Assembly (NCBI GenBank): GCA_001799285.1
Contig: MGTD01000008.1
Span: forward strand, 3,699-67,698
Direction of reading: 5' to 3'
DNA: 64,000 nt
Source of the DNA: Deltaproteobacteria bacterium RIFOXYD12_FULL_56_24
Lineage (GTDB): Bacteria; Desulfobacterota; Desulfobulbia; Desulfobulbales; Desulfurivibrionaceae
Within the stretch, counting starts at the first letter, position 1. Every line of letters begins with the position of its first letter. Under the pieces are notes generated by a model. It saw only the letters and a list, made by a program, of their open reading frames with translations. It was not told where the DNA came from and did not search any database. Shown piece by piece: positions 37,298-63,043 of this stretch. Position numbers and translations under genes: made by a program.

Positions 37298-38653
37298 ATG
37301 GCTTTAACAGGTATTCAAATCCTCAAAATGCTCCCCAAGAAAAACTGTGGGGAGTGCGGTATTCCGACCTGTCTCGCCTTTGCCATGAAGGTGGCGGCCG
37401 GGCAGATGGAAATTGGCGAATGCCCGTATGTGAGCGATGAGGTCAAGGAGCAGATCGGTGAGGCTTCCGCCCCTCCGATCCGGACTGTTAAAATCGGCAC
37501 CGGGGACAGCGCCTATACCACCGGCGGCGAAACCTGTCTCTTTCGCCATGAAAAGCGTTTCGAGAACCCCACCGGCATAGCGGTGCTGGTTACCACGGAG
37601 ATGAACGAGGCCGAGGTCGAGGGGAGGATCAGCCGGTTCAAGAGCCTCCGTTACGAGCGGGTCGGCGTTCTGCTCAAGGCCGACCTGATCGCGGTCAAGG
37701 ACAGCAAGGGCGATGCTGCCGCCTTTACCGCCCTGACCAGGATGGTACTGGATGGCGCCCCCGATGCCGGACTCATCCTGATGAGCGACAATCCCGATAA
37801 CCTCAAGGCAGGTGCTGCCGCCTGCGGGGAACGCAAGCCGCTCCTTTATGCCGCCACCGCTGCCAATGCTGAGGCCATGGCTGCTGTGGCCAAGGAGACC
37901 GGCTGCCCACTGGTTGCCAAGGGTGTAAACCTTGACGAGACCGTGGCGATTTCCGAGAAACTGCTGGCCGCCGGGCTCAAGGATTTGATGCTCGACAGCG
38001 GCGCCCGCACCATTCGGGCCGCCATGGAAGACAGCGTGGTGGGCCGGCGTTCCGCCATCCGGGCCAAATTCAAGCCTCTGGGTTTTCCGACCATCACCTT
38101 TCCCTGTGAGATCTCCACTGATCCGCTGATGGAGGCCATGGTCGCCTCGGTGCTTATTGCCAAATACGCCGGGATCATCGTTCTCTCCGACCTTCAGGGC
38201 GATATCCTCTTCCCACTGTTGCTGGAGCGGCTCAATCTCTTCACCGATCCGCAGCGGCCCATGGTGGTTCAGGAAGACGTCTACAACATCAACGGCCCAA
38301 CCGAAGATTCCCCGGTGCTGATCACCTGTAATTTCTCCCTTACCTACTTCATCGTCTCGGGCGAGATTGAGGGGAGTAAGGTGCCTTCCTGGCTGCTGAT
38401 TAAGGATACGGAAGGGCTTTCGGTTCTAACTGCCTGGGCGGCCGGCAAGTTCGGCGCGGACATGATCGCGGCGTTCATGAAGAAGTCCGGAATCGAGAGC
38501 AAGGTCAAGCATCGGGAGCTCATTATCCCCGGTTACTTGGCCTCCATGAAGGGCGAGCTTGAGGAAGAGCTGGCCGGCTGGACCATTACCATCGGTCCCC
38601 GCGAAGCCGGACATCTTCCTGCCTTTTTGAAGGAATGGAAGCCAGCGGCATGA
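37298..38653 (+). CDS. acsC: Corrinoid Fe-S protein large subunit
   Basis: LPKKNCGECGIPTCLAFA FeS motif, ITCNFSLTYF, GLSVLTAWAAGKF. Confidence 0.97.
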   Translation: MALTGIQILKMLPKKNCGECGIPTCLAFAMKVAAGQMEIGECPYVSDEVKEQIGEASAPPIRTVKIGTGDSAYTTGGETCLFRHEKRFENPTGIAVLVTTEMNEAEVEGRISRFKSLRYERVGVLLKADLIAVKDSKGDAAAFTALTRMVLDGAPDAGLILMSDNPDNLKAGAAACGERKPLLYAATAANAEAMAAVAKETGCPLVAKGVNLDETVAISEKLLAAGLKDLMLDSGARTIRAAMEDSVVGRRSAIRAKFKPLGFPTITFPCEISTDPLMEAMVASVLIAKYAGIIVLSDLQGDILFPLLLERLNLFTDPQRPMVVQEDVYNINGPTEDSPVLITCNFSLTYFIVSGEIEGSKVPSWLLIKDTEGLSVLTAWAAGKFGADMIAAFMKKSGIESKVKHRELIIPGYLASMKGELEEELAGWTITIGPREAGHLPAFLKEWKPAA

Positions 38654-38793
38654 TCCCGAGTATTGGATGCTGAGTGCTTCGCAGTGGGATTATAGCTCAT
38701 ATAGGTCCTATAAGACTTATAAATCCTAAATGATCTGTTTTGCCCGACTGTAACGCCCTGTTGCAGGGGCAATTATCACCATTAGGTTTTCTG

Positions 38794-41700
38794 ATGATAA
38801 ACATCGAGATCAACGGCTTGCAGATAGCCGCCGAAGAAGGGATCACCATCCTGGAGGCGGCAAAGCGAGCGGATATCCATATCCCGACCCTGTGCTATGT
38901 GAACAAGGGTACCTCGGACATCCCGTGTGAGCTCTGCGTGGTCAGCGTGGAAGGGCTGGAAAAGCCGGTGCGCTCTTGTGTAACCACGATCTGTGAAGGG
39001 ATGCGGATCAGCACCGAATCCAAGGAACTGCAGGCCAAGCGCACCGAGCGGTTGACCATTCTGATGGAGACCCATTTCGGCGATTGCAAGGCGCCCTGCA
39101 ACCTTACCTGTCCAGGGCAGATCAATGTGCAGGGCTACATTGCCCATGTGGCCAAGGGCCAGTACGAAGAGGCTCTGCGGTTGGTAATGGAGCGCAACCC
39201 TTTTCCCTTTTCCGTGGGGAGAGTGTGCCCCAGGTTCTGCGAGACCAGGTGCCGCCGGATTCTCGTGGATGAACCGGTGTCCATCAACCATCTCAAGCGC
39301 TTTGTCGCTGACTGGTGCATGGCCCACAAGATCGACCTGCGTATTCCCCGCGACCCGGCCACCGGCAAAAAGATCGCCGTTATCGGCGGTGGTCCTTCCG
39401 GCCTGACCGGTGCCTATTATCTTGCTCGCAAGGGCCATGATGTCACGGTGTTCGAGTCCTCGCCCAAACTCGGCGGCATGTTGCGCTACGGCATCCCCAA
39501 CTACAAGATTCCCCAGGACGTGCTTGATTACGAGATCAACACCATTTTGCGCATGGGGATCAATGTCCGCTTGAGCCAGAAGTGGGGCGAAGATTTCACC
39601 CTGCAATCCCTCAAGAATCAAGGCTACGAGGCCATCCTCATCGCCACCGGCACCCCGGTGGACGAGAGCCTGGATGTGCCGGGTTGCGCCCTGCCCAAGG
39701 TGATCCCGGCCACCAAGTTTTTGCGGGACATGTCCGAGGGTAAAGGCGGCAGCTACGGCAGCTCCGCGGTGGTTTTCGGCGGCAACAATATCGCCATGGA
39801 GGTTGCCCGCTCCTTGTTGCGTAAGGAGGTCAGCCAGGTAACGATCATTTATCCCCGGGCCCAGTCCGAGATGCCGGCCAACCAGCGCAATATCCGGGTG
39901 GCCGAGAAAGAAGGCGTCCAGTTTCTCCTCATGGCCTCGCCGGTGAATTTCCGGGATACCAATCACGGCATCGATGTGCAATTGATCCGCACCAAACTCG
40001 GAGAGCCGGACGAGAAAGGCATCCGCTACCCCGAAGCGATCCCCGGCTCCACGGTGAATATCCAGGCTGATACCGTCATTGTCGCGCAAGGCTTGAGCGC
40101 CTGTCGCGACAAGTTCGAGGGCGACCAACTGGAGGCTAGCCTGGAGCTGACTCCTAAATGCAACATTAAGGCCAATCCCAGAACGTCTCTGACCAACCAT
40201 CCCGGAATCTATGCGGCCGGGGATGTGACCAGCGGTCCCCGCACGGTGATTCAGGCCGTGGTCGCGGCCCGGCGGGCGGCGGAAAATATTCATGCCCAGG
40301 TCATGGGCCTTACCAACAAGACCGTGGCCGAAAGCCGCTTCAACTTCAGCCGGGGAAAGAGTTTTGATGATGTGGATCTGCGGAATTTTGAGGGGATCAA
40401 CATCAAGCTGCGGGAAAAGATGCCCACCAGACAGCCGCAGATCGCCACCCAGGATTTCGGCGAGATCAAGCTCGGCTTTTCGGAGCAAATGGCCATCACC
40501 GAGGCCAAACGTTGCCTGTCCTGCGGCTGTCGGGCCTTTGACCGTTGTGAACTGAAAAAACAGGCCATGGACTTCGGCCTGGATCCAAGCCGGACCGGGA
40601 TGGCGGCCAAGCCGACCTACATGGAAAAAATCAAGCATCCCATGATTCTGGTGGATCTGAACAAGTGCATCTATTGCAAGCGCTGTCAGAACAGCTGCGA
40701 ATATGATGCCCTGGAAATCAGCGCCGACGAGGTCGATGCCAAGGGCCGCCCCCTGGGGCTGCGTTTTCGCTTTAATGAAAAGTGCGTCAACTGCGGAGCC
40801 TGCGTGGATAATTGCTCTACCGGGGCGCTGAACAAGAAAGACGCCCTGGTGCCGGTGGTCAACGAACCCATCCGCGAGGTTCCCTCCACCTGCCCATACT
40901 GCGGGGCCGGCTGCCAGATCATCCTCAGGGTGAAGGGCAATACCCTGATGGAAGTCACCTCGGATCCGGATCTGGCGCCCAATTACGGGGCACTCTGCGT
41001 CAAGGGGCGGTTCGGGCATAATTTTGTCCAGCACAAGGATCGTTTAACCAAGCCCTTGATTCGCCTGGGCTCCCAATTGGTGGAGACAAGCTGGGAAGAG
41101 GCCCTGAATGTGGTGGCCAAGGGATTCTTCGATATCAAGGCCATGTACGGTCCTGATGCCATTTCCGGTTTCAGCTGTGCCCGGGCCAGCAACGAAGAAA
41201 ACTATCTGATGCAAAAATTCATGCGGACAGCGATCGGAACGAATAATATCGATCACTGCGCCCGACTCTGACACGCTCCCACGGTGGCCAGTCTGGCCCT
41301 CACCTTCGGCAGCGGCGCAATGACCAACTCCATTGCAGATACGAAAAAAACCGATCTCTTCTTCATGGTCGGCAGCAACCCGGACACCAGCCATCCGACC
41401 ATCGGCCTGCGCATTCATCAGGCCCTGGACCGGGGGGCGAAACTGATTGTGGTGGATCCCCGCCGGACCAGATTGGCCGAGCGGGCCGATCTCTGGCTGC
41501 GGATTCAGCCGGGGACCGATGTCGCCTTTTTAAACGGGATGATGCAGGTCATTATCGAGGAAGATCTCTGGGACAAGAAATTTGTCGAGGAGCGGACCGA
41601 GGATTTTGACGAGCTTGTCCGGCTGGTCAGGAAATACACCCCGGAGATGGTGGAGAAGATCACCGGCATTAACGAAGTCCAGCTGCGCCAGGCTGCCCGG

Positions 41701-42915
41701 ATGTATGCGGCGGAAGGGCGGCACGCTGCTTTCTGGGGCATGGGCATCACCCACTACGTCACCGGCACGGACCGGGTGAAATCCATCGCCGGCCTGACCA
41801 TGCTTTGCGGCAAGATCGGCAAGGAAGGCACCGGCTGCAATCCTCTCCGTGGCCAGAACAACGTGCAGGGCGCCTGTGACATGGGCGCCCTGTTCAATAC
41901 CCTTCCTGGCTACGGCGGCCTGGAAAACGATGAGCTCTTTGACCGGTATGAAAAGCTCTGGGGCATAAAACTGCCCCGGCGTCCCGGTAAACCGGCCACC
42001 GAGGTCTGGGATAATGTCTTCAAAGGTAATATCCGCGGTCTCTATATCTTTGGCGAAGATCCGGCCGTGGCTGATGCCAATATCGCCCATGTCCAGTCGG
42101 CCCTGGAAAAGGTCGATTTTCTGGTGGTTCAGGATATTTTCCTGACCGATACCGCGAAGATGGCCGACGTGGTATTGCCTGCCGCCTGCTACGCGGAAAA
42201 AGACGGCACCTTCACCTGCACCGAGCGGAGGGTCCAGCGGATTCGCAAGGCGGTTGAACCGCCGGGCGAGGCCAAGCCGGACTGGCAGATCATCTCCCAG
42301 CTTTCCCAGCGGATGGGCTATCCCATGCATTATAATTCCGCTTCGGAAATCTTTGACGAGATCTGCCAGCTACTGCCGCAGTACAAAGGGTTGTCCTATG
42401 AGCGGCTGGAAAAAGTCGGCCTGCAGTGGCCGGTGCCGGACCAGGATCATCCCGGCACTGAGATTTTGCATGTTGACACCTTCAGCCGGGGCAAGGGGCT
42501 GTTCATTCCGGAGGATTATTTCCCCCCGGTGGAATTGCCCGATGAGGATTATCCGCTGCTTTTCACCACCGGCCGCGATCTTGCCCGGTATAATTTCAGC
42601 AGCATGACCGGCAAGACCCCGGAGATCGACGAGGTCAGCCCGGAGTGTTTTGCCGAGGTGCATCCGCGTGATGCCGAGCGGTTGGGACTCAAGGAAAAAA
42701 ACTGGGTGCGGCTTACCTCGCGGCGCGGTTCGGTGCAGATGCGAGCCACCATCACCGACCGGACCCAGGAGGGCACCATCTTCAGCACCTATAATCATTT
42801 GCAGGCGCTGGTAAACATGCTTACCCTGGATGCACTGGATCGTCTTTCCCGGACTCCGGAGTACAAGCTGTGCGCCATCAAGGTTGCAGTTCTGGGAGAT
42901 GAGCTGCCGGAGTGA
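38794..42915 (+). CDS. fdhA: Selenocysteine formate dehydrogenase alpha subunit fused to N-terminal 2Fe-2S, GltD-like FAD/NAD(P) and 4Fe-4S domains (Sec at 41269-41271)
   Basis: ORFs 38740-41271 and 41284-42915 are in frame across TGA: NIDHCARL-U-HAPTVASLA, the Mo/W ligand position; GRVCPRFCE, GGGPSG, CPYCGAGC; no Tat signal. Confidence 0.9.
41283..41304 (+). promoter_or_regulatory. SECIS-like hairpin of fdhA
   Basis: GGTGGCCAGTCTGGCCCTCACC beginning 11 nt after the UGA. Confidence 0.75.
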
Positions 42916-51733: not shown

Positions 51734-53248
<1,515 letters not shown>

Positions 53249-53331
53249 TGAAACAGGAATACTCAACGATCCAAAACCAAGGTTAGCGCGGATTGATTAC
53301 GGATATGCCCGACTGGCGGAAGGGCTTGTTG

Positions 53332-53922
53332 CTAAAGCTGGCCGCAGTTTACGATCATCACTTTTTTCTTCGGCCGGCCGCTCTGCGTCCCCATCTCTTC
53401 AATTCTTTTTACCACCTCCAGGCCTTCAACCACTTTGCCGAAGACCACATGCTTGCCGTCGAGCCAGGGCGTTTGGGCGGTAGTGATGAAAAACTGGGAA
53501 CCGTTGGTGTTCGGCCCGGCATTGGCCATGGACAGGGTGCCCGGCCCCAGGTGCCGACGGAAGAAATTCTCATCGGCAAAGGTGCGGCCATAAATAGACT
53601 TGCCGCCGGTGCCGTCGCCGTTGGTAATATCGCCGCCCTGGAGCATGAACTGAGGAATAATGCGGTGGAAGATGCTTCCTTTGTACCCGAACCCCTTTTC
53701 GTGGGTGGCCAGCTGCCGAAAATTCTCCGCTGTTTTCGGCACCACATCGGCAAACAGCTCCATTACGATCCGGCCAGCCTTTTCATCGCCGATGACGATG
53801 TCAAAAAACACCTTGGGATTGGCCGCTATCGCCGGTTTTTCCTGAGCCGCCAAACTGCCGGCCAGAAACAGACCCAGCAACATCAAGCAGCCAATGAACA
53901 TTTTTTTTCCGTACTCCTTCAC
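53332..53922 (-). CDS. Cyclophilin-type peptidyl-prolyl isomerase with signal peptide
   Basis: [47 protein letters not shown]. Confidence 0.95.
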
Positions 53923-53998
53923 TTTTTTCTCCTTTAGTTCAAAAAACAGTTGTCGAATCTCTCATCCTTAATGAAAGCACTATGTTACACCTATCTGC

Positions 53999-54151
53999 GT
54001 AACTATCCAGCAGCACCGCATCTGCGTTGTTATCAGCCGGCTCATGGGCACCAGCACACGTCGCAGGCTTCTGCCTAGCAGCTCCGGCACTGCTGGATAG
54101 TTACGGTTTGGGTTGTTTTTGTTCGTTTCCGGCCTTGAGCTGGATAGTTAC
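53999..54151. repeat. Composite miniature element (B-type + D modules), without the A insert
   Basis: Same 13 bp TIRs as 14627-14833, opposite orientation. Confidence 0.88.
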
Positions 54152-54571
54152 CTATCTGCCGACGCCAATTTTTTCCTCTCGGATCTTGAGACACTTGCGG
54201 CTGAAGTCATCAAATTCTGCGCAGGTTTTCAGCACAAAAGCATTCTGGCCGGGATAAAAGGTGCATTTGCTCTGGTAGTCGCAGGTGTTGCCGAAAGAAT
54301 CCCAATGCTGGCACTCTTCGACACATTCCAGATCGCCATAACTGTGGATGGTTTTTTCAAAGAGACATTTTTTGGTAAAATCGTCCCAGTACTGGCACTC
54401 GCGCACAGCCATGGTCTGGCCGGATGCCCTGGCCTGCCCCCCTTCGCAGATCACCGTAAGATCCCGGTCACGGTAGACCTCTCCTTTTTTCAGTCGTACC
54501 TCTCTGGCCCCGCTGCTGACGGGAAGGGAAACAAGGAAAACAGCCAGGAGGAGGAACAGGCGCGGATTCAT
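54152..54571 (-). CDS. Secreted cysteine-rich hypothetical protein
   Basis: ATG at 54571 with AGGAG RBS; signal peptide; three CxxW/FDxFxxxC repeats. Confidence 0.75.
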   Translation of the reverse strand: MNPRLFLLLAVFLVSLPVSSGAREVRLKKGEVYRDRDLTVICEGGQARASGQTMAVRECQYWDDFTKKCLFEKTIHSYGDLECVEECQHWDSFGNTCDYQSKCTFYPGQNAFVLKTCAEFDDFSRKCLKIREEKIGVGR

Positions 54572-54660
54572 GGTCGTCTCCTTTTTACGAGCAGCACCGA
54601 AAACGGGACGCTCCCGTATTAATTGGTTCTCCCGGAGCTTAAATGGAAACAAGATTGCCC

Positions 54661-55059
54661 CTAGCTCTTGCCATAACGGCTTAGCACGTTCTTGACACTG
54701 TCCCGCAGCTTGTCCAGATTGATCGGCTTGAGTACATAGCCCTTGGCTCCGGCCCCGATGGCTTCGATTACCATCTGCTCCTGGCCGTGGGAAGTAACCA
54801 TGATAATCAGGGCATTAGACTGCAAGGCAAGAATCCGGCGAGTCGCGGCAATGCCATCCATATCCGGCATGGTAATATCCATAGTAATAAGATCGGGGAT
54901 GGAAAGGCCCTTATTGGTCATATATTCGATGGTCTCGACCGCTTCCAGGCCGGTTTTGCAGATTTTGCCGACCTCGTAGCCAAGCTGTTCAAGCATCGCC
55001 ACCAAACGTTTTGCGGTCAAGGCCGAATCGTCTACAACCATGATGTTAGGTTTGCTCAT
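54661..55059 (-). CDS. Single-domain CheY-like response regulator
   Basis: IMVVDDS, DLITMDITMPDMDG, MVTS, YVLKP. Confidence 0.93.
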   Translation of the reverse strand: MSKPNIMVVDDSALTAKRLVAMLEQLGYEVGKICKTGLEAVETIEYMTNKGLSIPDLITMDITMPDMDGIAATRRILALQSNALIIMVTSHGQEQMVIEAIGAGAKGYVLKPINLDKLRDSVKNVLSRYGKS

Positions 55060-55589
55060 TATAGTTTCTCCACATAATTGAGGTTCAGATCAAAGAGTTC
55101 CTTGGGGCCGATGAAATGAATACTCAACATGCCGCTGTCGGTGATAATATCCAACGTGTAAAATGTGGCCCCCTTGTTACGGGTAATATTTTTGGCCTCG
55201 TTGATGATAATGGGCGGGGAGATGGGGATGACCGTGCCCATGGAGGCCAGGTCAGCCATGGCGTTGCCGACAATGATATTGATCAGCTCGGCGACGGTTT
55301 CTTCCCGCATCATCTCCTGTTCATCTGCGGAGATCTCCAGCCCCTGGGTGCTGGCAACAAAAACCCGTTCCGTCAACTCCCGGTCAAAACTGAAGGCGAT
55401 TAACATGCGGATGTCTGCCTCCACCGAGAGAATCGAGGTCAGGTGCTGCAATTGCATGCGCTTGACATCCTGCATATGCGCCGTTGTGCCCCGGACCGTA
55501 ATTTCCAGCTCATCTTTCAGGTAGCCTACGGTCCGGTCGCCGATGGCCTGGACCAACCGGCTGTGTCTGTCATCATGAACATCGCTCAT
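55059..55589 (-). CDS. cheX: CheX-family phosphatase
   Basis: ETVAELINIIVGNA (ExxN motif), ISPPIII; stop overlaps the ATG of the CheY-like gene. Confidence 0.82.
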   Translation of the reverse strand: MSDVHDDRHSRLVQAIGDRTVGYLKDELEITVRGTTAHMQDVKRMQLQHLTSILSVEADIRMLIAFSFDRELTERVFVASTQGLEISADEQEMMREETVAELINIIVGNAMADLASMGTVIPISPPIIINEAKNITRNKGATFYTLDIITDSGMLSIHFIGPKELFDLNLNYVEKL

Positions 55590-55591
55590 TG

Positions 55592-57919
55592 TTATTTCTC
55601 CCTGGCCGTAATTTGCAATGATTCAAGGTAAGGAAGGATAAATCTGAACCGGGTTCCTTTCCCGAGGGTCGAGTCCACCTCAATTATGCCGCCCAACCTT
55701 TCCGTTTCCATGCGGACCGCCGCCAAACCTACGCCGCGGCCGGACAGCTCGCTTACTTCCTCCTTGGTGGAGAACTCATCTTCAAAGATCAGCAGGCGCA
55801 GCGCATCTTCGTCCAGAGCACCACCCTGTTCCGGGGTGAAAAGACCTGCGGCTACCCCTTTGCGGCGGATCGCCTCAAGATCAAGGCCGCGGCCGTCGTC
55901 GTTGATCTCGAGTATGATCCGGTCATCATCCATAAAAGTACGGCAGCTGAGGTGGCCTTCCTCCTCCTTGCTCTGCGCCAGCCGTTCCTCCGGGGTCTCA
56001 AGACCGTGATCCACTGCGTTGCGGAAGAGATGGATCAGCGACTTGGTAAAGGGGCTGTAAATCTCCGGGGCGACCCGCACCCCGTTGTCCTCCACCTCGA
56101 CCGGAGCCAGCTCCTTTTCCAGCCGCTCGGCCAGACGCACCGCCGTCTTGGCGTGTCCCGAAAGCAGGTCGCCGAAGGAGACATAGCGCAACCGCTTGAT
56201 GAGTTGCAGCATCTCCCTGGTCTCTTCGGAATCAAGGGACGGCCCCTTGGCCTGCAAGAGTCGGTCGGCCAAATGCTCCAGCATTTCGGTCTGCTCAGGC
56301 GTCAGGGAGAGATGGCCGCGCCGGGCAAAAAAGGCATCGCCCAGGGTCTCCTGAAGCACGGCCAGTTCCTGGGCCAGGGCCTGATCGGCCAGGGCCTGCT
56401 CATGTTCGAGCAGAGCCCGGTCCGGATGTTGTCTGGCCAGATCGCGGCGCAGCCGGTTGAGGGCGGATTCGTATTGATGGAGACGGCGCGGCAGGTGCAG
56501 GAATTCCAGCTGCCCGAAAAGCCCCTTGAAGGTGTGAACCTGGCGGTAAATCTCGGCCAGACCGGCGGCCAGTTCCTCGTCCGGGGCGGCCAGCAACCGG
56601 GGCAGGGTGTTTTTGCTGAAGTTCTGGTAATCGTCAAGAACCTCGAACAGATCTGCCGATTCGGTAGCCGCGGCCACGATGAAGCGCAGGCGGATCTGCT
56701 CTTCCGCCACCCGGGCCTCAAGGCGGCGCTGCTCGGTGATATCGGTGATGATCAGCATCAGCCTCCTGTCGCCCAGCAGGCGGTAGGCGATATCCAGATA
56801 ACGCTCGTTGAGATATAGCTCCTTGGGCATCAGCGAGAGGAGGATGTCGCGCTGAAATTCGTCAGCGGTTTGTACGATCAGCTGAATATTGGCGCCGAAA
56901 CGCTCCCGTTCCTCTTCATCTTCAGGAAAGAGCAGGGCGGCCACGGATTTGCCGGCCACCTCCCCATTAAAAAAGGTCAGGCATTCCCGACTGTATTCCG
57001 GCTCGACTTCCAGGTCCGGACCGAAGGAAAGAAAGCCCTGTCCCGAGTTGTTGAGCAGGCCGGAGAGGCGGTCGCTCTTGTCGGCAAGTTGGCGCCGGGT
57101 AATGAGAATGCGCCGGTACATGGTGGCGATGATAAAGGTGACCAGCAGCACCACCGTGCCATTGCCCAGCAAAATGTAGAGAAGTTGCCGGGTGCTTTCC
57201 CTGGTTCTCTGCAAGAATGCGGCTTTGTCGATGGTCACCCCCAAAACCCCGGCGGTCTCGCTGATCTGCCAGTAAGTATGGCAGACGGTGCATTTGCCTT
57301 CCACCGGGATGCGTTCGTAAAAATGGGCCACGCGGTCTTCCAGCACCTCGGCCCGGTTCCGGTCGTTAAAGCGGAGATTTTTATCCAAAACGAAATGGCA
57401 TTCGGCGCAGGATTTCCCCTGTACTTTTGCCAGATGAGCCTGCCCGGCAGCGGAATCGAAACGGCCGGCCAGGTGCCAGTCCCGGCGTAGGAACATCCCC
57501 CTGGTTTTTTCGTACAGGTCAAGGTTGGGGTTGATCAAGACGCCTTTTTCATCGTGGACAAAGGGCAGCCCCACCGTAACCGTGCCGGAACGGTAGTTCA
57601 TCAAGCCTTCGCGGGGATAAAGGGTGGTGGCGGTTACTCCTTCCAACTGGGCGGTGTTGTCCATCACCAGCTGAAAGGTCTTACGCTGGCCTTTCTCGAT
57701 GGAATCGCGGGTCTGGGAGACATAGCTGGTGAGGATGCCGCTGCCCTGCTCGCGGATGGTGCGATTCATCATCTGCTTCTGGTAGTAATGAAAGACCAGC
57801 CCTGCCACCACCGAAATCAGTAACAGGCAGGAGAAGGCGATCAAAAGAAAACGCGGCACCACCCGCTCGGGGTTGGGCTCCCGGTTGCCAGGTTTCGGTT
57901 TTTCCATTTCCGGCCTCAT
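55592..57919 (-). CDS. Membrane sensor kinase: periplasmic diheme domain, PAS-like, HPt, CheA-type HATPase (no CheW domain)
   Basis: TM1, CAECH and CTVCH, TM2, LNNSGQGFLSF, HPt YRQVHTFKG, HLFRNAVDHGLE, DDGRGLD, FSTKEEVSELSGRGVGL. Confidence 0.85.
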   Translation of the reverse strand: MRPEMEKPKPGNREPNPERVVPRFLLIAFSCLLLISVVAGLVFHYYQKQMMNRTIREQGSGILTSYVSQTRDSIEKGQRKTFQLVMDNTAQLEGVTATTLYPREGLMNYRSGTVTVGLPFVHDEKGVLINPNLDLYEKTRGMFLRRDWHLAGRFDSAAGQAHLAKVQGKSCAECHFVLDKNLRFNDRNRAEVLEDRVAHFYERIPVEGKCTVCHTYWQISETAGVLGVTIDKAAFLQRTRESTRQLLYILLGNGTVVLLVTFIIATMYRRILITRRQLADKSDRLSGLLNNSGQGFLSFGPDLEVEPEYSRECLTFFNGEVAGKSVAALLFPEDEEERERFGANIQLIVQTADEFQRDILLSLMPKELYLNERYLDIAYRLLGDRRLMLIITDITEQRRLEARVAEEQIRLRFIVAAATESADLFEVLDDYQNFSKNTLPRLLAAPDEELAAGLAEIYRQVHTFKGLFGQLEFLHLPRRLHQYESALNRLRRDLARQHPDRALLEHEQALADQALAQELAVLQETLGDAFFARRGHLSLTPEQTEMLEHLADRLLQAKGPSLDSEETREMLQLIKRLRYVSFGDLLSGHAKTAVRLAERLEKELAPVEVEDNGVRVAPEIYSPFTKSLIHLFRNAVDHGLETPEERLAQSKEEEGHLSCRTFMDDDRIILEINDDGRGLDLEAIRRKGVAAGLFTPEQGGALDEDALRLLIFEDEFSTKEEVSELSGRGVGLAAVRMETERLGGIIEVDSTLGKGTRFRFILPYLESLQITAREK

Positions 57920-58875
57920 TTTGCGGATCCTTTCGGCATGACCCCTGCCATGGCCTTGGCCTCAGCGTGGGTGTGGTAGAGCAGGGGACGGGGAAAAAGT
58001 TCGCTGGCGCAGCCGATACAGGGATGGCCGGCCCGGATGCAGTTGTTGGTGTTGCCGTTGTAGCCGAGGGCAATGCAATCGTTGTAGGTCACCGGTCCCT
58101 GACAGCCTAATTCCATCAGGCAACCCTCCTCGCCAATGCGCTGGGCGAAATCGCGGGCCTGAAAGGCGGCGTAGCGGGGGCAGCGCTCGTGGACCGAATG
58201 GGAGAAGAAGCGTCGCGGTCGCCGGGCGTCGTCCAGCTCCGGCAGCCTCTTGGTCTTGATGAAATAGAGCAGGGTGTAGACCAGATGGTCGGGGTGCATG
58301 GGGCAGGACGGCAGGTTGACCGAGGGGGTCTTGATGGCCCGCTGTTTGAGAAAATCATCCAGGGATTTGGCGCCCGTCAGGGTGCCGGCCATTGTCGCCA
58401 CGCCGCCCGAGACGGCGCAGGTGCCGGCGGCGATACAGAGCGAGGCTTTGGCGGCCAGCAGAGCTGCCCATTCGCTGATGGGCTTATGGGCCAGCATGCA
58501 GGCATGGGGCATGCCCACGGGGATGGCGCCCTCCATGACCAAAATGTACGGTTTGCCGGAAGCGGCCAGCTTGTTCAGGATCTGCGGAACCTGATCCCCG
58601 GAGGCCGAAGAGAGATCAGGATGGTACACCAACCGGGTGAAATAAGTAAGAAAGTCCAGAATGGTGATCTGCTCGACATTAAGCAGCGAGGTGGAGCAGC
58701 CGGAACAGGACGCCCCATGCAGCCAGATCAGGTTGGGTCGGGACCAGCCGGCAGCCGCGGGTTTGGCCTCGGCGGCCAGCAACTCGTCGAAGGAGATGAG
58801 CGGCGCGGCCCCGGCCGCAATCACCAACTGATAGATTCTTTGCAGAAATTTTCGTCGATCCAGGGTTATGGTCAT
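57916..58875 (-). CDS. [NiFe]-hydrogenase small subunit with Tat signal
   Basis: DRRKFL twin-arginine motif, CSGC, GTC, SCP, HERCP..CLMELGCQGP, NDC..NNC..HPCIGC. Confidence 0.92.
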   Translation of the reverse strand: MTITLDRRKFLQRIYQLVIAAGAAPLISFDELLAAEAKPAAAGWSRPNLIWLHGASCSGCSTSLLNVEQITILDFLTYFTRLVYHPDLSSASGDQVPQILNKLAASGKPYILVMEGAIPVGMPHACMLAHKPISEWAALLAAKASLCIAAGTCAVSGGVATMAGTLTGAKSLDDFLKQRAIKTPSVNLPSCPMHPDHLVYTLLYFIKTKRLPELDDARRPRRFFSHSVHERCPRYAAFQARDFAQRIGEEGCLMELGCQGPVTYNDCIALGYNGNTNNCIRAGHPCIGCASELFPRPLLYHTHAEAKAMAGVMPKGSAK

Positions 58876-58876
58876 T

Positions 58877-60430
58877 TTAATGCACCGAGCAAGCGATACA
58901 AGGATCGGTGGAGCGGACGATGCGGGCCAGTTCCAGTGGGTTGGCCGGATCAGCGATCCGGGTGCCGATCAGCATCTTTTCCACCGCTCCCGGCTGCCCG
59001 GAGGAATCGCGAGGGCCCATATTCCAGGTGGTGGGCATCACCATTTCATAGTTTTTGATCAAGCCCTTATTGTCGATTTCCACCCAGTGCCCGAGGGCGC
59101 CGCGCGAAGCTTCAGTGATTCCGATTCCCCGCACGTTTCTGGGCACTTCCTTTTCTATAAAACCGAGAACCCCCGGTCGGACCTGCTCAAGATGTTCCTT
59201 GAGCCGCCCGATCAACAATGTAACCGTAATATACCGGCTTAAATGGCGGCCCAGCACCGAATTGTAGTCTGTAAGTGCGATGCCGAGATCCCGATTGAGT
59301 CGGTCCACCAGCTTATTTAAGGCCGGATTGCGACCGGAGTGATAAGTGTTTACCACCCGGGCCGCCGCCCCGGTTTCCATGACCTTGCCCCCATAGCGGG
59401 GGGCGCGGCTCCAGCTGTATTTGCCGTCCGGTCGCTGTTCCTCTCGCTGGAACTGTTTCCAGTCGAGGGGCTCGAGCCGGCTTGCCCCCAAGGGTTTGAT
59501 CCCTGCCCCAGGCTTGTTTTGGTAGTAGCTGTAGGTGTGATCCTCGGTAATGGCATTGAGGTCGAGGGGTGAGCGTTTCCCCTCAATGGTCGCGCCGCCG
59601 GCAAAGAAATGGTTCTTGCCGGATGAGTCTGGGAAATAGGGAAACGAGAGAAAATTGCCGTAGCCGCGCCCTTCCTGGAAATAGCCTGGAAAACCCTTGC
59701 TCACCGCCAAAATGTCTTCCCGATAGCAGGTGTGGACAAATCGCTCGACCCGATTGAGCAAGGTGCGGTATTTGGCAAGATTGTCGATGGTCGGCCGGGT
59801 CGTGACCCCGCCGGCCTCAATGGCCACGGGGTGGGGCGATTTGCCTCCGAACAGGGCCACCATTTTGTGCAGGTCGGCCATTATGGCAAATGATTCCAGA
59901 TAATTGCGCACCGCCGATAGGTTGGCGGTTGTATCCTTGAGGAAATCTCCCTGATAACGGGGGAGAAAGGGGGCTGCGGGAAAAATCCGTTGGGAGCGGG
60001 TTTCGCTGCGCACCCAATCGCGCATCGTGGTTAAGCCGGGATCCGCACCCCGGTACTTCAGCACCGCGGTTACGTCGATGAAATCCAGGGCGCTCAACTG
60101 GTAAAAATGCAGCAGGCAATCCTGCACCTGATACGCGCCGACAATGAGGTTGCGAAGCAGTTGCCCGTTGGCATTGAGATGGATGCCCATGGCGTTTTCC
60201 AGGGCCAGGGCCGCCGCTTCCGCGTGGGCATACGGACATACCCCGCAGACCCGCTGGGTCAACTGCAAGGCGGTGCGGGGATCATAGCCGATAAGTGCCT
60301 TTTCGATGCCGCGAAAGAGCATGCCCGAAGTCCGGGCCGAGGCAACCACTCCGTTTTCGACCCGGGTTTCGAACTTGAGATGCCCTTCTACCCTGGTCAG
60401 GGGATCAATGGTTATTTTGGTTGTGGTCAT
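58877..60430 (-). CDS. [NiFe]-hydrogenase large subunit ending at the L2 histidine
   Basis: IDPLTRVEGH, L1 QRVCGVCPYAH, L2 DPCIACSVH followed directly by TAA. Confidence 0.95.
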   Translation of the reverse strand: MTTTKITIDPLTRVEGHLKFETRVENGVVASARTSGMLFRGIEKALIGYDPRTALQLTQRVCGVCPYAHAEAAALALENAMGIHLNANGQLLRNLIVGAYQVQDCLLHFYQLSALDFIDVTAVLKYRGADPGLTTMRDWVRSETRSQRIFPAAPFLPRYQGDFLKDTTANLSAVRNYLESFAIMADLHKMVALFGGKSPHPVAIEAGGVTTRPTIDNLAKYRTLLNRVERFVHTCYREDILAVSKGFPGYFQEGRGYGNFLSFPYFPDSSGKNHFFAGGATIEGKRSPLDLNAITEDHTYSYYQNKPGAGIKPLGASRLEPLDWKQFQREEQRPDGKYSWSRAPRYGGKVMETGAAARVVNTYHSGRNPALNKLVDRLNRDLGIALTDYNSVLGRHLSRYITVTLLIGRLKEHLEQVRPGVLGFIEKEVPRNVRGIGITEASRGALGHWVEIDNKGLIKNYEMVMPTTWNMGPRDSSGQPGAVEKMLIGTRIADPANPLELARIVRSTDPCIACSVH

Positions 60431-60476
60431 GGCGCGGCTTCTTGCTGAATTTTACCTGGTTGCTCCCACGTCCCGG

Positions 60477-61400
60477 TCAACACGGGATCTCCTCGCCTGC
60501 TTCCACCCGATTACGTCCTTTTCCCTTGGCCCGGTAAAGCGCATCGTCCGCCCGCCTGAGCAGGGCTTCCTCGTCGTCCGCAGGACGAAAGGCGGCAACC
60601 CCGAAACTGGCGGTTATCCGGCCTATAACCGGGAATCTGGCCTCTTCTACACAGGCGCGCAACTGTTCGGCCAGAAACATGCCCCCGTTTGCATCGGTTT
60701 CGGGACAGAGGAGCATAAATTCCTCTCCGCCCCAGCGCCCAACCACATCAGTGGCCCGGCTGTGCTGCCGCAGAAGGGCGGCGGTTGCCGCCAGCACCTC
60801 GTCGCCAGCCTGATGGCCATAGGTGTCGTTTACTGCCTTGAAATGATCAATATCCAGCATGACCAAGGCAAAAGCGGTACCGTTACGCCGGGATCTTGCC
60901 AATTCGTCGGCCAGCCGTTCGTCCAGTTTGTTGCGGTTGCCGAGCCCGGTAAGGCGATCGGTCACCGAGAGCAATTCCAGCTCGCGGCTCTTTAGAGCCA
61001 GCTGGGCATGGGCTTCGGCCAGGGAATTCTGAATCTGCTTTATGGACGAGATGTCCACCACCACGGAGTATTTAACGATCTTGCCATCCGACCAAAAGAT
61101 GACCTGCTCATGATGCTGATACCAGCACTCGTCCACGTCGTTGTAATGTTCGTGGACAATAACTTCGCCGGTTGGCTGCCCCTCACCGGTGATCAGGAGC
61201 TTGAGCTTGCAATGGGGACAGGGGCCCTCACCCTGGTGGAGCAACTCCCAGCAACGGGCATCGGTGTAATCGCCGGTAACGCCGTAGCGCTCGGCCATAA
61301 AGGGGTTGAGATAAACCAGACGATAGCTGGTCGCATCCACCGCGTAGATTCCGAAAGGTAAATTGTCGACAAGGACTAGGGGCAGTTGTGGCTGAATCAT
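60477..61400 (-). CDS. PAS-like + GGDEF diguanylate cyclase
   Basis: TDRLTGLGNR, MLDIDHFKAVNDTYGHQAGD, RWGGEEF, LYRAKGKGRNR. Confidence 0.93.
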   Translation of the reverse strand: MIQPQLPLVLVDNLPFGIYAVDATSYRLVYLNPFMAERYGVTGDYTDARCWELLHQGEGPCPHCKLKLLITGEGQPTGEVIVHEHYNDVDECWYQHHEQVIFWSDGKIVKYSVVVDISSIKQIQNSLAEAHAQLALKSRELELLSVTDRLTGLGNRNKLDERLADELARSRRNGTAFALVMLDIDHFKAVNDTYGHQAGDEVLAATAALLRQHSRATDVVGRWGGEEFMLLCPETDANGGMFLAEQLRACVEEARFPVIGRITASFGVAAFRPADDEEALLRRADDALYRAKGKGRNRVEAGEEIPC

Positions 61401-61638
61401 GGGCTGGTTTCCAGTGGCTCTTCGTCATGATTACGCTCCCGCCTATCACGCCGCGCCTCTCTTTTTGTTGCGTCGAAGTTCCGGTGAGGCACTACCCCCG
61501 GTGCATCATTGGGCAATAGTACCAGATTTTGGAGTGAAAGAAAGCAAGGTTTTAATCAGTCGAAAAATGAGGCAGACTTAGCTACCGGGCCAAGTCCTCA
61601 TTTTGCCTCCTCAAAGAACGTAATCTTCTGCCGCAACG

Positions 61639-61764
61639 CTACCGCAGGCGCGGCTGGTACATGCGGATCGGCAGCACCGAGGCGTAGCGTTTGAAATCCT
61701 GGTTCGTGGTGAAAATGGGCAGCTGGTGGCGATGCGCCACGAGATTGTATCCGGCAAGAACTGC
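61639..61764 (-). pseudogene. 3' remnant of a PIN-domain (VapC-like) gene
   Basis: Minus strand VAHRHQLPIFTTNQDFKRYASVLPIRMY resembles PIN C-termini (xxTxDxDF); in-frame stop at 61765-61767 upstream and no start codon. Confidence 0.5.
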
Positions 61765-62074
61765 TCAATGAAGGGGGAAATTTTATGGGCAGATTACTGG
61801 GTTGAAGTTCAAGCGGGGAAGGGTGGGGGGCAAAATTAATCATGGATGTCCTGAATGGCACTTTTCTAACAACTTTTTGCTTGTCAATCCCTATCCTGTT
61901 GTTTAAGCTGGGATCCTCGCTGTTCAGATGAATGCCACCAGGGGGAAAGGCATGCCGGGACCGAGTATCGCTAACAGCCGTCAACAATCAGGAAATCGCA
62001 AGCCGCTTCGGGAGATGATCCGCCTGGGAGCGGCTTTTTTTGTGCGTCGGTCTGATTGCGTCAGGTGAATTTAC

Positions 62075-62096
62075 GCATAGTACGCAACAACGTCCC
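62075..62096 (+). repeat. Left direct repeat of the Y1 transposase region
   Basis: GCATAGTACGCAACAACGTCCC, 19/22 identical to 63049-63070. Confidence 0.75.
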
Positions 62097-62107
62097 GGAG
62101 CCCCTAT

Positions 62108-63043
62108 ATGGTCCGGGGAATCAACCGGGCCGAGATCTTTTGCGATGACGACGATCGCCGCCGGTTCTTGAAAAGGCTCGGCGAATTGATCGTTGCCTCC
62201 AAGATTCAGGTGTTCGCCTTCGCCTTGATGACCAATCACCTCCACATCCTTTACAAAAGCGGAGAAGGCGGAATTTCCTCCGTGATGCGCAAGCTGCTGA
62301 CCTCGTATGCCATTTACTTCAACCGCCGTCATAATCGGAGCGGTCATTTGTTCGAGAACCGCTATAAATCAATCCTCTGCGAGGAAGAACGATATCTGCT
62401 CGAACTCGTGCGCTATATCCATCTCAACCCTGTCCGCGCCGGGCTGGCGGCGACCTTGGGTGAACTTGACAGCTATCCGTGGTGCGGCCATGCGGCGTTG
62501 ATGGGGAAGCACCCCATGGAGTGGATGAGTACCGAATACGTACTGGCCCATTTCGGGACCACCCTTGCCGCCGGTCGCAAGAAATACCGCGCTTTTGTGG
62601 CGGATGGATTGGAGCAGGGCAAGAGACCGGAGTTGACCGGGGGCGGATTGGTGCGCAGCCAGGGAGGCTGGTCGCAAGTGCTTGGGCTGCGGCAAAGTGG
62701 CGAGCAGGTGTGTTCGGATGAGCGGATTCTCGGCGGGGGCGATTTTGTCGAAGACTTGTTGCGGGAGGCGGAAGAGAGTGAACTGCGGCAACTGCGCATC
62801 AGGCGATCCGGCAAGACCATGGTCGAGATCATCGAGGAAGAATGCCGGAATCGGTCGGTGAGCGGCAAGGAACTTCGATCCGGCAGCCGACGCAGGGTGG
62901 TAAGCGAAGCGAGGGCGGCAATAGCGTTCCGCGCCATCGAGGAACTGGGTCTGGCAACGGCTGAAATCGCCCGGGCTCTCGGGGTGGCAACTTCCTCCAT
63001 CAGCCGGGCGATAACCAGAGGGGCTGGGTTGCGTCAAAGCTAA
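62108..63043 (+). mobile_element. Y1/HUH (IS200-like, RAYT-type) transposase with C-terminal HTH; N-terminus possibly truncated
   Basis: MVRGINRAEIF, FALMTNHLHIL (HUH), YFNRRHNRSGHLFENRY, YIHLNPVRAG. Confidence 0.85.

What the first reader, a model, noticed from the sequence alone, without database searches (positions are those of the whole stretch)
55592..57919. Diheme periplasmic sensor fused to a CheA-like kinase core without CheW
Seen: two CxxCH motifs (CAECH, CTVCH) between two TM helices, then PAS-like, HPt (VHTFKG) and CheA-type HATPase (HLFRNAVDHG, SGRGVGL), ending without a CheW domain. No MCP or cheW gene is nearby. Established: CheA normally has an N-terminal HPt and receives input via CheW/MCP arrays. 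Inference: a receptor-kinase hybrid that reads heme redox state directly and feeds a CheX/CheY pair, collapsing a chemotaxis-like pathway into one membrane protein.
Basis: partly seen in the sequence, partly recalled or inferred. Interest (0 to 1): 0.72.

Follow-up and report, generated by a model that had tools for sequence, protein, structure and literature searches.

The report
Hydrogenase-coupled diheme sensor kinase (H2 sensor)
The diheme membrane kinase is real, but it is the third gene of a conserved cassette that starts with an exported [NiFe] hydrogenase, so it most likely reports hydrogen gas outside the cytoplasm to a CheY-type switch; the same heme domain sits on chemotaxis receptors next to the same hydrogenase in other phyla.

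Summary
The ORF at 55592-57919 (-) is real. It has two TM helices, a 200-residue periplasmic loop with two invariant CxxCH motifs, a PAS-like domain, a CheA-P1-like HPt (His462), a P3-like hairpin and a CheA-type P4 ATPase. It has no P5/CheW domain.

The kinase is translationally coupled to a [NiFe] hydrogenase: large subunit 58877-60430, ending at the DPCxxCxxH histidine with no maturation extension, and small subunit 57916-58875 with a twin-arginine signal. CheX and CheY follow.

This five-gene order holds in every related Desulfurivibrionaceae locus examined. A profile of the diheme domain found 54 representative protein clusters: 36 MCPs, a few kinases and three GGDEF proteins. Every locus found through the domain that had enough upstream DNA shows large subunit, small subunit, then the diheme protein. 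Named examples are Sulfurimonas, Thiocystis, Nautiliaceae and Desulfurispira; in SAR324 the gene is divergent.

Best reading: a periplasmic H2 sensor. The hydrogenase reduces the transducer's hemes, and here the output is a CheW-independent CheA-like core. Electron transfer and the cellular output are inferred, not shown.

No Pfam or NCBIfam model covers the domain, and ten literature searches found no description.

Verdict: observation confirmed, interpretation partly supported, new variant of known kinds, interest about 0.7.

The parts
58877..60430 (-). [NiFe] hydrogenase large subunit, 517 aa. It has the RVCGVC and DPCIACSVH Ni-binding motifs and ends at the final His, with no C-terminal maturation extension.
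   Evidence: Pfam NiFeSe_Hases 2.9e-133. The best PDB relatives are Group 1b/1a periplasmic enzymes (1yrq 4e-94), and the alignment runs to the mature C-terminus. All clade members end at ...CSVH*.
57916..58875 (-). [NiFe] hydrogenase small subunit, 319 aa. It has a twin-arginine signal (DRRKFLQ) and no C-terminal membrane anchor. An extra Cys sits at the position of the Pro next to the medial cluster.
   Evidence: Pfam Oxidored_q6 plus NiFe_hyd_SSU_C. Alignment to D. vulgaris Miyazaki 1h2a_S. An RR motif is present in all clade members. The stop overlaps the kinase start by 4 nt.
55592..57919 (-). Diheme sensor kinase, 775 aa (the finding).
57785..57853 (-). TM helix 1 (residues 23-45).
   Evidence: Hydropathy peak; helix in the model.
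57185..57784 (-). Periplasmic diheme sensor domain (residues 46-245): an alpha/beta PAS/Cache-like scaffold with an insert that carries the heme motifs.
   Evidence: No indels in 18 homologues. 54 representative clusters at E<1e-30. Secondary structure from the model. No Pfam, NCBIfam or PDB family match.
57395..57409 (-). CxxCH motif 1 (CAECH, residues 171-175).
   Evidence: Invariant in 54/54.
57278..57292 (-). CxxCH motif 2 (CTVCH, residues 210-214).
   Evidence: Invariant in 54/54.
57116..57184 (-). TM helix 2 (residues 246-268), followed by RRILITRRQ on the cytoplasmic side.
56735..57052 (-). Cytoplasmic PAS-like domain (residues 290-395) with the family-wide NNSGQGFLSF motif and a conserved Cys313.
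   Evidence: Model strands and helices. Conservation in 75 core relatives. Pfam PAS_4 only E 0.07.
56324..56659 (-). HPt / CheA-P1-like helical bundle. The phospho-acceptor is His462 (nt 56534-56536), with Lys465 and Glu484.
   Evidence: Pfam Hpt E 0.0018. PF01627 is precomputed on homologues P0033, P0034, P0036 and P0040. The three residues are invariant.
56123..56299 (-). P3-like helical hairpin (putative dimerisation element).
   Evidence: Foldseek aligns 235-247 columns to CheA P3P4 (4xiv, 1b3q). There is no Pfam H-kinase_dim hit.
55628..56098 (-). CheA-type P4 ATP-binding domain (N box HLFRNAVDHG, G1 DDGRG, G2 SGRGVGL).
55059..55589 (-). CheX-family CheY-P phosphatase, 176 aa.
   Evidence: Pfam CheX 2.3e-11. 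It follows the kinase in all kinase-type loci.
54661..55059 (-). CheY-like single-domain response regulator, 132 aa (DD, D61, T89, Y108, K111).
   Evidence: Pfam Response_reg 4e-27. The best NCBIfam hit is CheY_Halo at 2.8e-24, below its cut-off. Its start overlaps the CheX stop.
60477..61400 (-). PAS-GGDEF diguanylate cyclase. It is only loosely associated: upstream here and in L008, downstream in L003.
   Evidence: It was transcribed in groundwater metatranscriptomes in which the cassette was not detected.

Best explanation
The kinase is the signal-transducing subunit of a periplasmic hydrogen sensor.

Proposed mechanism:
1. The cassette's [NiFe] hydrogenase is exported by the Tat pathway. 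Its large subunit lacks the proteolytic maturation tail.
2. The hydrogenase oxidises H2 in the periplasm.
3. It passes electrons through its three Fe-S clusters to the two c-type hemes on the kinase's periplasmic domain.
4. The heme redox state, or the state of the docked hydrogenase, is relayed through TM2 and the cytoplasmic PAS-like domain to a CheA-like P1-P3-P4 core.
5. This changes autophosphorylation of His462 and phosphotransfer to the CheY-like regulator. CheX resets the regulator quickly.

In most other lineages the same hydrogenase/diheme module is attached to a methyl-accepting chemotaxis protein. The Desulfurivibrionaceae version replaces MCP + CheW + CheA with one direct sensor kinase.

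Shown here: the gene anatomy, motif conservation, topology logic and synteny across phyla.
Inferred: covalent heme attachment, hydrogenase-to-heme electron transfer, the sign of kinase control, and the cellular output (motility is most likely).
For: Cassette structure:
- Gene spacing is tight: large/small subunit 1 nt apart, small subunit/kinase 4-nt overlap, kinase/CheX 2 nt apart, CheX/CheY 1-nt overlap.
- The order large subunit, small subunit, kinase, CheX, CheY is conserved in D. alkaliphilus, D. dismutans, Thiovibrio frasassiensis and about 20 MAG loci, at 52-94% identity.

The diheme domain as a family:
- A profile search found 54 representative clusters at E<1e-30. Of these, 36 carry MCPsignal, 5 HATPase_c and 3 GGDEF, and both CxxCH motifs are invariant.
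- From the domain side, the large and small subunit genes lie immediately upstream in 18/18 genome loci and 16/16 metagenome loci with a full-length match.
- From the hydrogenase side, a transducer with the domain is adjacent in Sulfurimonas, Thiocystis, Desulfurispira and SAR324 (divergently oriented in SAR324).

The hydrogenase:
- Every large subunit in the clade stops at DPCxxCSVH, and every small subunit has an RR N-terminus.
- The cassette encodes no cytochrome b, no cytochrome c3 and no maturation protease. The diheme protein occupies the slot normally held by the electron acceptor.
- The closest solved relatives are the periplasmic Group 1a/1b hydrogenases, which by established knowledge donate electrons to c-type cytochromes.

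Independent parallel:
- The same kinase core is fused to a sensory-type [FeFe] hydrogenase domain plus CheX in P0063 and P0068; for P0068, the locus that was looked up, a response-regulator gene follows.
Against: - No experiment: heme attachment, complex formation and H2-dependent signalling are all untested.
- The large subunit keeps the standard Val/Leu gas-channel residues (CGVC, HFYQL) rather than the Ile/Phe of the characterised regulatory hydrogenases. It could therefore be an ordinary catalytic enzyme.
- Two hydrogenase loci of the clade lack an adjacent transducer: L007, and L053, which also lacks a small subunit.
- The model of the periplasmic domain has only moderate or low confidence, and no complex could be modelled.
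- No re-oxidation route for the hemes was identified.
- Small metatranscriptomes showed no reads on the cassette.
Confidence: 0.6

Rival explanations
1. Generic periplasmic redox or small-ligand sensor. The hemes equilibrate with the periplasmic cytochrome or sulfide/polysulfide redox pool, or bind NO, CO or O2. The neighbouring hydrogenase is merely co-expressed or is a regulated target.
For: Heme-c periplasmic sensor domains on MCPs and kinases are known to work this way (Geobacter GSU0582/GSU0935, listed; sCache_heme NO sensors, PMC12889525). Candidate distal ligands are not universally conserved: His162 in 45/54 and Met107 in 40/54. One heme could therefore be open to ligands.
Against: A general redox sensor would not be expected to keep strict large subunit, small subunit, domain synteny across Desulfobacterota, Campylobacterota, Chromatiales, Chrysiogenota and SAR324, whatever the output domain. 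The hydrogenase has sensor-like peculiarities (no extension, no acceptor gene). A CheY/MCP output cannot regulate hydrogenase transcription directly.
Confidence: 0.17
2. Respiratory uptake hydrogenase with a signalling membrane anchor. The enzyme is a normal energy-conserving Group 1 hydrogenase. The diheme two-TM protein is its anchor and electron exit, and the kinase or MCP part reports flux through it (energy taxis on H2 respiration).
For: By sequence the hydrogenase is closest to respiratory Group 1a/1b enzymes and keeps their gas-channel residues. Its Fe-S ligands are intact. The organism encodes a Wood-Ljungdahl pathway and could use H2.
Against: The two TM helices carry no conserved heme-b or quinone-site residues. 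The domain is attached to MCP, GGDEF and kinase outputs, which are low-copy signalling proteins. The cassette has no downstream electron carrier. Loss of the maturation extension is atypical for Group 1 respiratory enzymes.
Confidence: 0.15
3. Coincidental neighbourhood or non-functional relic. The kinase and hydrogenase are unrelated genes kept together by drift in one family.
For: Some loci look degraded: L041-L043 and L045 hold fragments only, and L053 holds a large subunit alone.
Against: All catalytic and cofactor motifs are invariant. The order is conserved at 40-60% protein identity across phyla, and the genes overlap.
Confidence: 0.03

Closest known systems
H2-sensing regulatory hydrogenase systems (HoxBC-HoxJ-HoxA of Cupriavidus necator; HupUV-HupT-HupR of Rhodobacter; HydDB [NiFe] Group 2b)
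   Same: A [NiFe] hydrogenase whose large subunit lacks the C-terminal maturation extension is encoded next to a histidine kinase and is thought to act as the H2-binding input of a phosphorelay (PMC6978683; PMC5037454).
   Different: Those sensors are cytoplasmic, have no Tat signal, belong to Group 2, have a narrowed gas channel and contact a soluble PAS kinase that controls transcription. Here the enzyme is Tat-exported and Group 1-like, with a standard channel and large-before-small gene order. It is coupled through a diheme c domain to a membrane CheA-like kinase or MCP with CheY-type output.
Heme-c periplasmic sensor domains of Geobacter MCPs GSU0582/GSU0935 (PDB 3b47, 3b42) and the sCache_heme (DUF3365/Tll0287) family
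   Same: A PAS/Cache-like extracytoplasmic domain between two TM helices that carries covalently bound c-heme and feeds MCP or kinase outputs. The idea that a cytochrome-derived fragment was inserted into a Cache scaffold (PMC12889525) fits the weak MtrC-like match of the CxxCH...CxxCH stretch.
   Different: Those domains hold one heme and are not tied to a hydrogenase. No significant sequence or fold match was found here: Foldseek E 0.3-0.6, Tll0287 E 0.37, no Pfam DUF3365 hit. This domain has two invariant CxxCH motifs and obligate hydrogenase synteny.
CheA (class II chemotaxis histidine kinase)
   Same: P1-type HPt with a His/Lys/Glu triad, a P3-like hairpin, a P4 ATP-binding domain with CheA-specific similarity, and CheY and CheX partners.
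   Different: No P2, no P5/CheW-like domain, its own transmembrane sensor and a PAS-like linker. No MCP or CheW gene lies in the 64 kb window. It belongs to a separate, widespread sensor-fused family in Desulfobacterota.
Sensory [FeFe] hydrogenases (HydDB Group C1 histidine-kinase-linked and C2 chemotactic, both putative)
   Same: A hydrogenase module wired to kinase or MCP outputs. Relatives P0063 and P0068 fuse an [FeFe] hydrogenase domain to the very same kinase core plus CheX (PMC5037454).
   Different: Those are cytoplasmic, use an H-cluster and are fused in cis. Here a separate periplasmic [NiFe] heterodimer would signal in trans through hemes.
Periplasmic Group 1a/1b [NiFe]/[NiFeSe] uptake hydrogenases of sulfate reducers, which donate to cytochrome c3
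   Same: These are the closest sequence relatives. They share the Tat signal, a soluble periplasmic heterodimer and a c-type cytochrome as acceptor. The extra Cys suggests a [4Fe-4S] medial cluster as in the [NiFeSe] enzymes.
   Different: Here the gene order is large subunit then small subunit, there is no C-terminal extension or protease, and the 'acceptor' is a signalling protein rather than a soluble tetraheme cytochrome.

Membership tests
CheA (chemotaxis kinase) | P1 HPt domain with phospho-acceptor His | tested here: met
   VHTFKG; His462, Lys465 and Glu484 invariant. Pfam Hpt E 0.0018 on the fragment, and PF01627 on homologues.
CheA (chemotaxis kinase) | P3 dimerisation domain (Pfam H-kinase_dim) | tested here: inconclusive
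   No Pfam hit. Foldseek aligns helices 541-599 plus P4 to CheA P3P4 (4xiv, 235 columns).
CheA (chemotaxis kinase) | P4 CheA-type ATP-binding domain | tested here: met
   NCBIfam CheA_Halo 2.7e-45 over 578-763. Foldseek to 1i58 and related entries, TM 0.85-0.93 on the target.
CheA (chemotaxis kinase) | P5 CheW-like domain coupling to MCP arrays | tested here: not met
   No PF01584 hit, and the protein ends 12 residues after P4. No CheW or MCPsignal in the window.
Regulatory H2-sensing hydrogenase (Group 2b, HoxBC/HupUV) | Large subunit without C-terminal extension | tested here: met
   Ends ...DPCIACSVH*, aligned to the mature end of 1yrq.
Regulatory H2-sensing hydrogenase (Group 2b, HoxBC/HupUV) | Cytoplasmic; small subunit without Tat signal | tested here: not met
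   DRRKFLQ plus a hydrophobic region at the N-terminus. An RR motif is present in all clade members.
Regulatory H2-sensing hydrogenase (Group 2b, HoxBC/HupUV) | Narrowed gas channel (Ile/Phe at the Val74/Leu122 positions; residue identities recalled from the literature) | tested here: not met
   CGVC and HFYQL align to Val74 and Leu122 of D. fructosovorans.
Regulatory H2-sensing hydrogenase (Group 2b, HoxBC/HupUV) | Sequence affiliation with Group 2 | tested here: not met
   Group 1b/1a structures score 310-320 bits against 183 bits for Group 2a Huc. The best NCBIfam hits are NiFeSe/Group 1 models. The HydDB classifier was not available.
Group 1 periplasmic uptake [NiFe] hydrogenase | Tat signal on the small subunit; intact Ni and Fe-S ligands | tested here: met
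Group 1 periplasmic uptake [NiFe] hydrogenase | C-terminal extension on the large subunit with a dedicated endopeptidase; dedicated cytochrome b or c3 acceptor | tested here: not met
   No extension. No protease, cytochrome b or c3 gene in the cassette in any locus.
sCache_heme / DUF3365 (Tll0287) heme sensor | Match to PF11845/Tll0287 with a single conserved CxxCH | tested here: not met
   No Pfam hit even at E 10. Profile against Tll0287 (5b82) gives E 0.37 over 33 residues. There are two CxxCH motifs.
Hydrogenase-linked diheme transducer domain (family delineated here) | About 200-residue periplasmic domain between two TM helices, with KGQ..FQ, the Y109/R145/W148 positions, two CxxCH motifs and W217, encoded next to an extension-less large subunit and a Tat small subunit | tested here: met
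Hydrogenase-linked diheme transducer domain (family delineated here) | Covalent binding of two hemes and reduction by the hydrogenase | not testable with these tools
   Needs heme staining, spectroscopy and H2-dependent reduction assays.

The most novel reading that the evidence does not exclude
The cassette represents a widespread and so far undescribed class of bacterial hydrogen receptor. A dedicated periplasmic [NiFe] hydrogenase serves as the ligand-binding subunit of chemoreceptors, kinases and diguanylate cyclases by reducing a conserved diheme domain. This would give Campylobacterota, purple sulfur bacteria, Desulfobulbales and others true H2 chemotaxis. The Desulfurivibrionaceae form is a CheW-free, one-protein receptor-kinase.
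Probability: 0.5. Interest if true: 0.85.

Novelty: new variant of a known kind. Interest (0 to 1): 0.72.

Why it matters
The H2 sensors characterised so far are cytoplasmic regulatory hydrogenases that control transcription. The searches here turned up directed movement toward H2 shown only in a methanogen (PMC3817446) and suspected in a sulfate reducer (PMC12004927), and I found no molecular receptor described for bacteria.

A periplasmic hydrogenase wired through hemes to MCPs or to a CheA-like kinase would supply that receptor. It would also show enzyme turnover used as a chemoreceptor input. And it would explain an 'extra' Group 1-like hydrogenase of the kind genome papers have annotated as a second uptake enzyme.

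The system is directly testable. Desulfurivibrio alkaliphilus, D. dismutans, Thiovibrio frasassiensis and Desulfurispira natronophila are named strains that carry the cassette; the Sulfurimonas locus seen here is from a MAG.

The kinase variant also documents a CheA-type core working without CheW or arrays.

Tried and rejected
- Foldseek of a separate model of the periplasmic domain: the model was poor (pLDDT 64.7) and no match reached E<0.001. Only weak hints to WalK-type extracellular PAS domains and GSU0582/0935, so the fold assignment stays tentative.
- HydDB Group 2b/2c membership: could not be run. Similarity and the Tat signal argue for Group 1, but the PAS-GGDEF neighbour in 3 loci leaves open that part of this clade was binned as 'DGC-linked 2c'.
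- Promoter and terminator scan of 53000-62500: nothing above shuffled expectation.
- Metatranscriptomes from a groundwater study whose DNA runs hold most of this locus: contigs only on the GGDEF gene, none on the cassette, which is uninformative for co-transcription.
It was repeated with the narrower A6.
- The genome-collection scan used patterns that were too specific and returned mostly close relatives.
- Look-up of P0078: not on record.
- CheC/CheX active-site motif as I recalled it (D/S-x3-E-x2-N-x22-P): it did not match exactly, so I claim only the Pfam CheX hit.
- Ten literature searches: no paper describes a hydrogenase/heme-transducer system. PMC12727194 merely tabulates MCP genes near [NiFe] large-subunit genes.
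Full report
**Observation**

The ORF at 55592-57919 on the minus strand is a clean 775-codon reading frame. It holds CAECH at residues 171-175 and CTVCH at residues 210-214. These motifs lie between the only two strongly hydrophobic segments, residues 23-45 and 246-268. The C-terminal two thirds is an ATP-dependent kinase and must be cytoplasmic. The 200-residue loop with both heme motifs is therefore periplasmic, and arginine-rich flanks (RRILITRRQ after TM2) agree with this topology.

The motifs are not chance. Both are invariant in 18 full-length homologues down to 52% identity, and the N-terminal 253 residues align without a single indel.

Pfam recognises only HATPase_c (2e-17). The best NCBIfam hit is CheA, restricted to the P4 region (2.7e-45). 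A weak Hpt hit (E 0.0018) covers VHTFKG.

In an alignment of 75 relatives of the cytoplasmic core, His462, Lys465 and Glu484 are invariant. Their spacing matches the CheA P1 His48/Lys51/Glu70 triad as I recall it. The N, G1 and G2 boxes are also invariant.

An AlphaFold model (mean pLDDT 78.5) shows these elements in order:
- TM1 continuing into a long helix
- an alpha/beta periplasmic domain
- TM2
- a PAS-like alpha/beta domain (residues 294-393)
- a helical HPt region
- a helical hairpin
- the ATPase domain

Foldseek aligns the hairpin plus ATPase to Thermotoga and E. coli CheA P3P4 and P4 structures (E down to 6e-16; TM up to 0.93 on the target). The chain ends 12 residues after P4, so there is no CheW/P5 domain. 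tblastn finds no MCP signalling domain and no CheW-type domain in the 64 kb window.

The kinase start codon overlaps by 4 nt the stop of a 319-aa [NiFe] hydrogenase small subunit (57916-58875). That gene lies 1 nt after a 517-aa large subunit (58877-60430). CheX (55059-55589) and a CheY-like regulator (54661-55059) follow the kinase with a 2-nt gap and a 1-nt overlap.

The small subunit begins MTITLDRRKFLQ followed by a hydrophobic stretch, a twin-arginine export signal. It has no C-terminal membrane anchor. It keeps the His/Cys ligands seen in the Desulfovibrio vulgaris Miyazaki enzyme. It also has an extra Cys where [NiFeSe] enzymes have the fourth ligand of a [4Fe-4S] medial cluster (the ligand mapping is from my knowledge).

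The large subunit has both Ni-binding motifs but terminates exactly at the histidine of DPCIACSVH. It thus lacks the extension that a maturation protease removes in standard enzymes.

By sequence the enzyme is closest to periplasmic Group 1b/1a hydrogenases (about 310-320 bits). It is far from Group 2a Huc (183 bits). It keeps the ordinary Val/Leu gas-channel residues.

**Conservation of the cassette**

The order large subunit, small subunit, diheme kinase, CheX, CheY recurs in:
- Desulfurivibrio alkaliphilus (61% kinase identity)
- D. dismutans
- Thiovibrio frasassiensis
- a 53%-identical metagenomic relative
- about twenty Desulfurivibrionaceae MAG loci

There was no exception wherever the contig reached far enough. 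A PAS-GGDEF gene is adjacent in only three loci. A small secreted Cys-rich protein is adjacent in several.

**The diheme domain is a family of its own**

A profile of the periplasmic domain, searched against 1.84 billion representative proteins, found 54 clusters at E<1e-30. Among those representatives:
- 36 carry an MCP signalling domain and 33 carry HAMP
- 5 carry HATPase_c (three with HisKA, two with Hpt)
- 3 carry GGDEF and 3 carry a receiver domain

All six Cys/His residues of the two CxxCH motifs are present in 54 of 54. Phe82, Tyr109 and Arg145 are also invariant. His162 (45/54) and Met107 (40/54) are the best candidates for distal ligands.

No Pfam or NCBIfam model covers the domain. 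The DUF3365/Tll0287 idea fails: there is no hit, and the profile E-value is 0.37. The CxxCH...CxxCH stretch weakly resembles a diheme piece of MtrC (E 0.01). The scaffold has a PAS/Cache-like order of secondary structure. However, a separate model of the domain was poor and gave no significant structural match.

**The domain and the hydrogenase travel together**

Starting from the hydrogenase: large subunits of 515-517 aa at 60-65% identity are widespread.
- In Sulfurimonas, Thiocystis violacea and Desulfurispira natronophila, the large and small subunit genes are followed directly by an MCP whose N-terminal domain is homologous to ours, including both CxxCH motifs.
- In a SAR324 genome a 736-aa protein with the domain is encoded divergently next to the large subunit.
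- Two loci lacked an adjacent transducer (L007, L053).

Starting from the domain:
- 18 of 18 genome loci, including a Nautiliaceae MAG, have the large and small subunit genes immediately upstream.
- So do 16 of 16 metagenome loci with a full-length match.
- Four further metagenome loci look like degraded remnants.

All large subunits of the clade end at ...CSVH*, and all small subunits carry an RR N-terminus.

**The kinase core is also a family**

The PAS-like/HPt/P3/P4 core without CheW is common in Desulfobacterota. It is fused to solute-binding, PAS, 7TMR and beta-propeller sensors.

Two relatives, P0063 and P0068, combine ferredoxin-like and [FeFe] hydrogenase domains, this same core and CheX in one polypeptide. 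A response-regulator gene follows P0068, the one whose locus was looked up. This links the core to hydrogen sensing a second, independent time.

**Mechanism**

The most economical reading is a periplasmic H2 sensor. The exported hydrogenase oxidises H2 and reduces the two hemes of the transducer. The signal then crosses the membrane to an MCP in most lineages, or to this CheA-like core here, and is passed to CheY with CheX as the reset.

Shown here: anatomy, conservation, topology logic and synteny.
Inferred: covalent heme, electron transfer, the sign of control, the heme re-oxidation route and the output. Motility is favoured because 36 of 54 representatives are MCPs and the partner here is CheY-like with CheX.

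Rivals:
- A generic redox or ligand sensor whose hydrogenase neighbour is incidental. This is disfavoured by the cross-phylum synteny.
- A respiratory hydrogenase with a signalling anchor. This is disfavoured by the lack of any quinone or heme-b features and by the variety of signalling outputs.
- Chance linkage.

**Comparison with known systems**

It works like the HoxBC-HoxJ and HupUV-HupT H2 sensors, in that an extension-less [NiFe] hydrogenase feeds a kinase. It fails their membership tests on localisation, group affiliation and gas channel.

It resembles Geobacter heme-c MCP sensors and sCache_heme domains in principle, but shows no detectable homology to them and has two hemes.

It is CheA-like in P1, P3 and P4 but is not a CheA, because it has no P5 or P2 and carries its own sensor.

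HydDB lists HK-linked (2b) and putative DGC-linked (2c) [NiFe] sensors and putative kinase- or MCP-linked [FeFe] sensors (PMC5037454). I could not run its classifier, so some overlap with 2c cannot be excluded.

Ten full-text searches found no description of a hydrogenase/heme-transducer module. One 2025 neighbourhood survey only tabulates MCP genes near [NiFe] large subunits (PMC12727194). A Nautilia genome paper called a hydrogenase it likened to enzymes of Desulfobulbales-type deltaproteobacteria (Desulfotalea, MLMS-1) a second uptake enzyme; I did not test whether it belongs to this clade (PMC2628731).

**Verdict**

I rate it a new variant of known kinds, with interest about 0.7.

The window comes from a groundwater Desulfurivibrionaceae genome. 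It also encodes a Wood-Ljungdahl cluster and a selenocysteine formate dehydrogenase.

Noticed in passing
window 38740-42915 (+): A formate-dehydrogenase-like molybdopterin enzyme fused to Fer2/GltD-like NAD(P)-binding domains is split by an in-frame TGA at 41269-41271, within IDHCARL*HAPTV. This is the classic selenocysteine site, so it is one Sec-containing gene rather than two ORFs.
   Followed up: partly
window 29112-38653 (+): Wood-Ljungdahl gene cluster: FolD, a CODH (Prismane family), an MTHFR-CdhD fusion, the ACS/CODH beta subunit, and the corrinoid protein CdhD.
   Followed up: partly
window 20318-22639 (+): A 773-aa MtrC/MtrF-like multiheme outer-surface cytochrome with a collagen-like triple-helix repeat at its N-terminus.
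   Followed up: no
window 54152-54574 (-): A 140-aa secreted Cys-rich protein with repeated C-x-[YHE]-[WF]-D-[DS]-F-x3-C units and no Pfam or NCBIfam match. It recurs within about 1 kb of the cassette in at least L008, L013, L014 and L016, and upstream in L018 and L020.
   Followed up: partly
window 60477-61400 (-): The PAS-GGDEF gene upstream of the hydrogenase is covered by identical contigs in two groundwater metatranscriptome runs, while the cassette has none. It is probably a separate transcription unit.
   Followed up: partly
window 62108-63043 (+): An IS200/Y1-type transposase-like ORF with a DnaA-C-like HTH lies just upstream of the locus.
   Followed up: no
window 56735-57052 (-) and alignment A2: The cytoplasmic PAS-like domain carries a motif (NNSGQGFLSF) and a Cys (Cys313) that are conserved in 90% or more of 75 kinase-core relatives regardless of their sensor domain. 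This hints at a cofactor or a second input site.
   Followed up: no
L050 5001-8375 (P0068); also P0063: One polypeptide combines Fer4, an [FeFe] hydrogenase large-subunit domain, the same kinase core and CheX, and is followed by a response regulator.
   Followed up: partly
L041-L043, L045: These metagenome loci have only about 20-130 residues of the large subunit directly abutting a truncated diheme domain. They look like deletion remnants of the cassette.
   Followed up: no
L005 4736-6725; L007 380-6798: In Sulfurimonas and one other locus the sensor-type hydrogenase is preceded by hyp genes and a HypX-like formyltransferase/enoyl-CoA-hydratase fusion. In L053 (Rhodoferax) the large subunit stands alone without a small subunit.
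   Followed up: no
window 23081-26152 (-): A HAMP-HisKA sensor kinase and a sigma-54-dependent response regulator pair, unrelated to the cassette.
   Followed up: no
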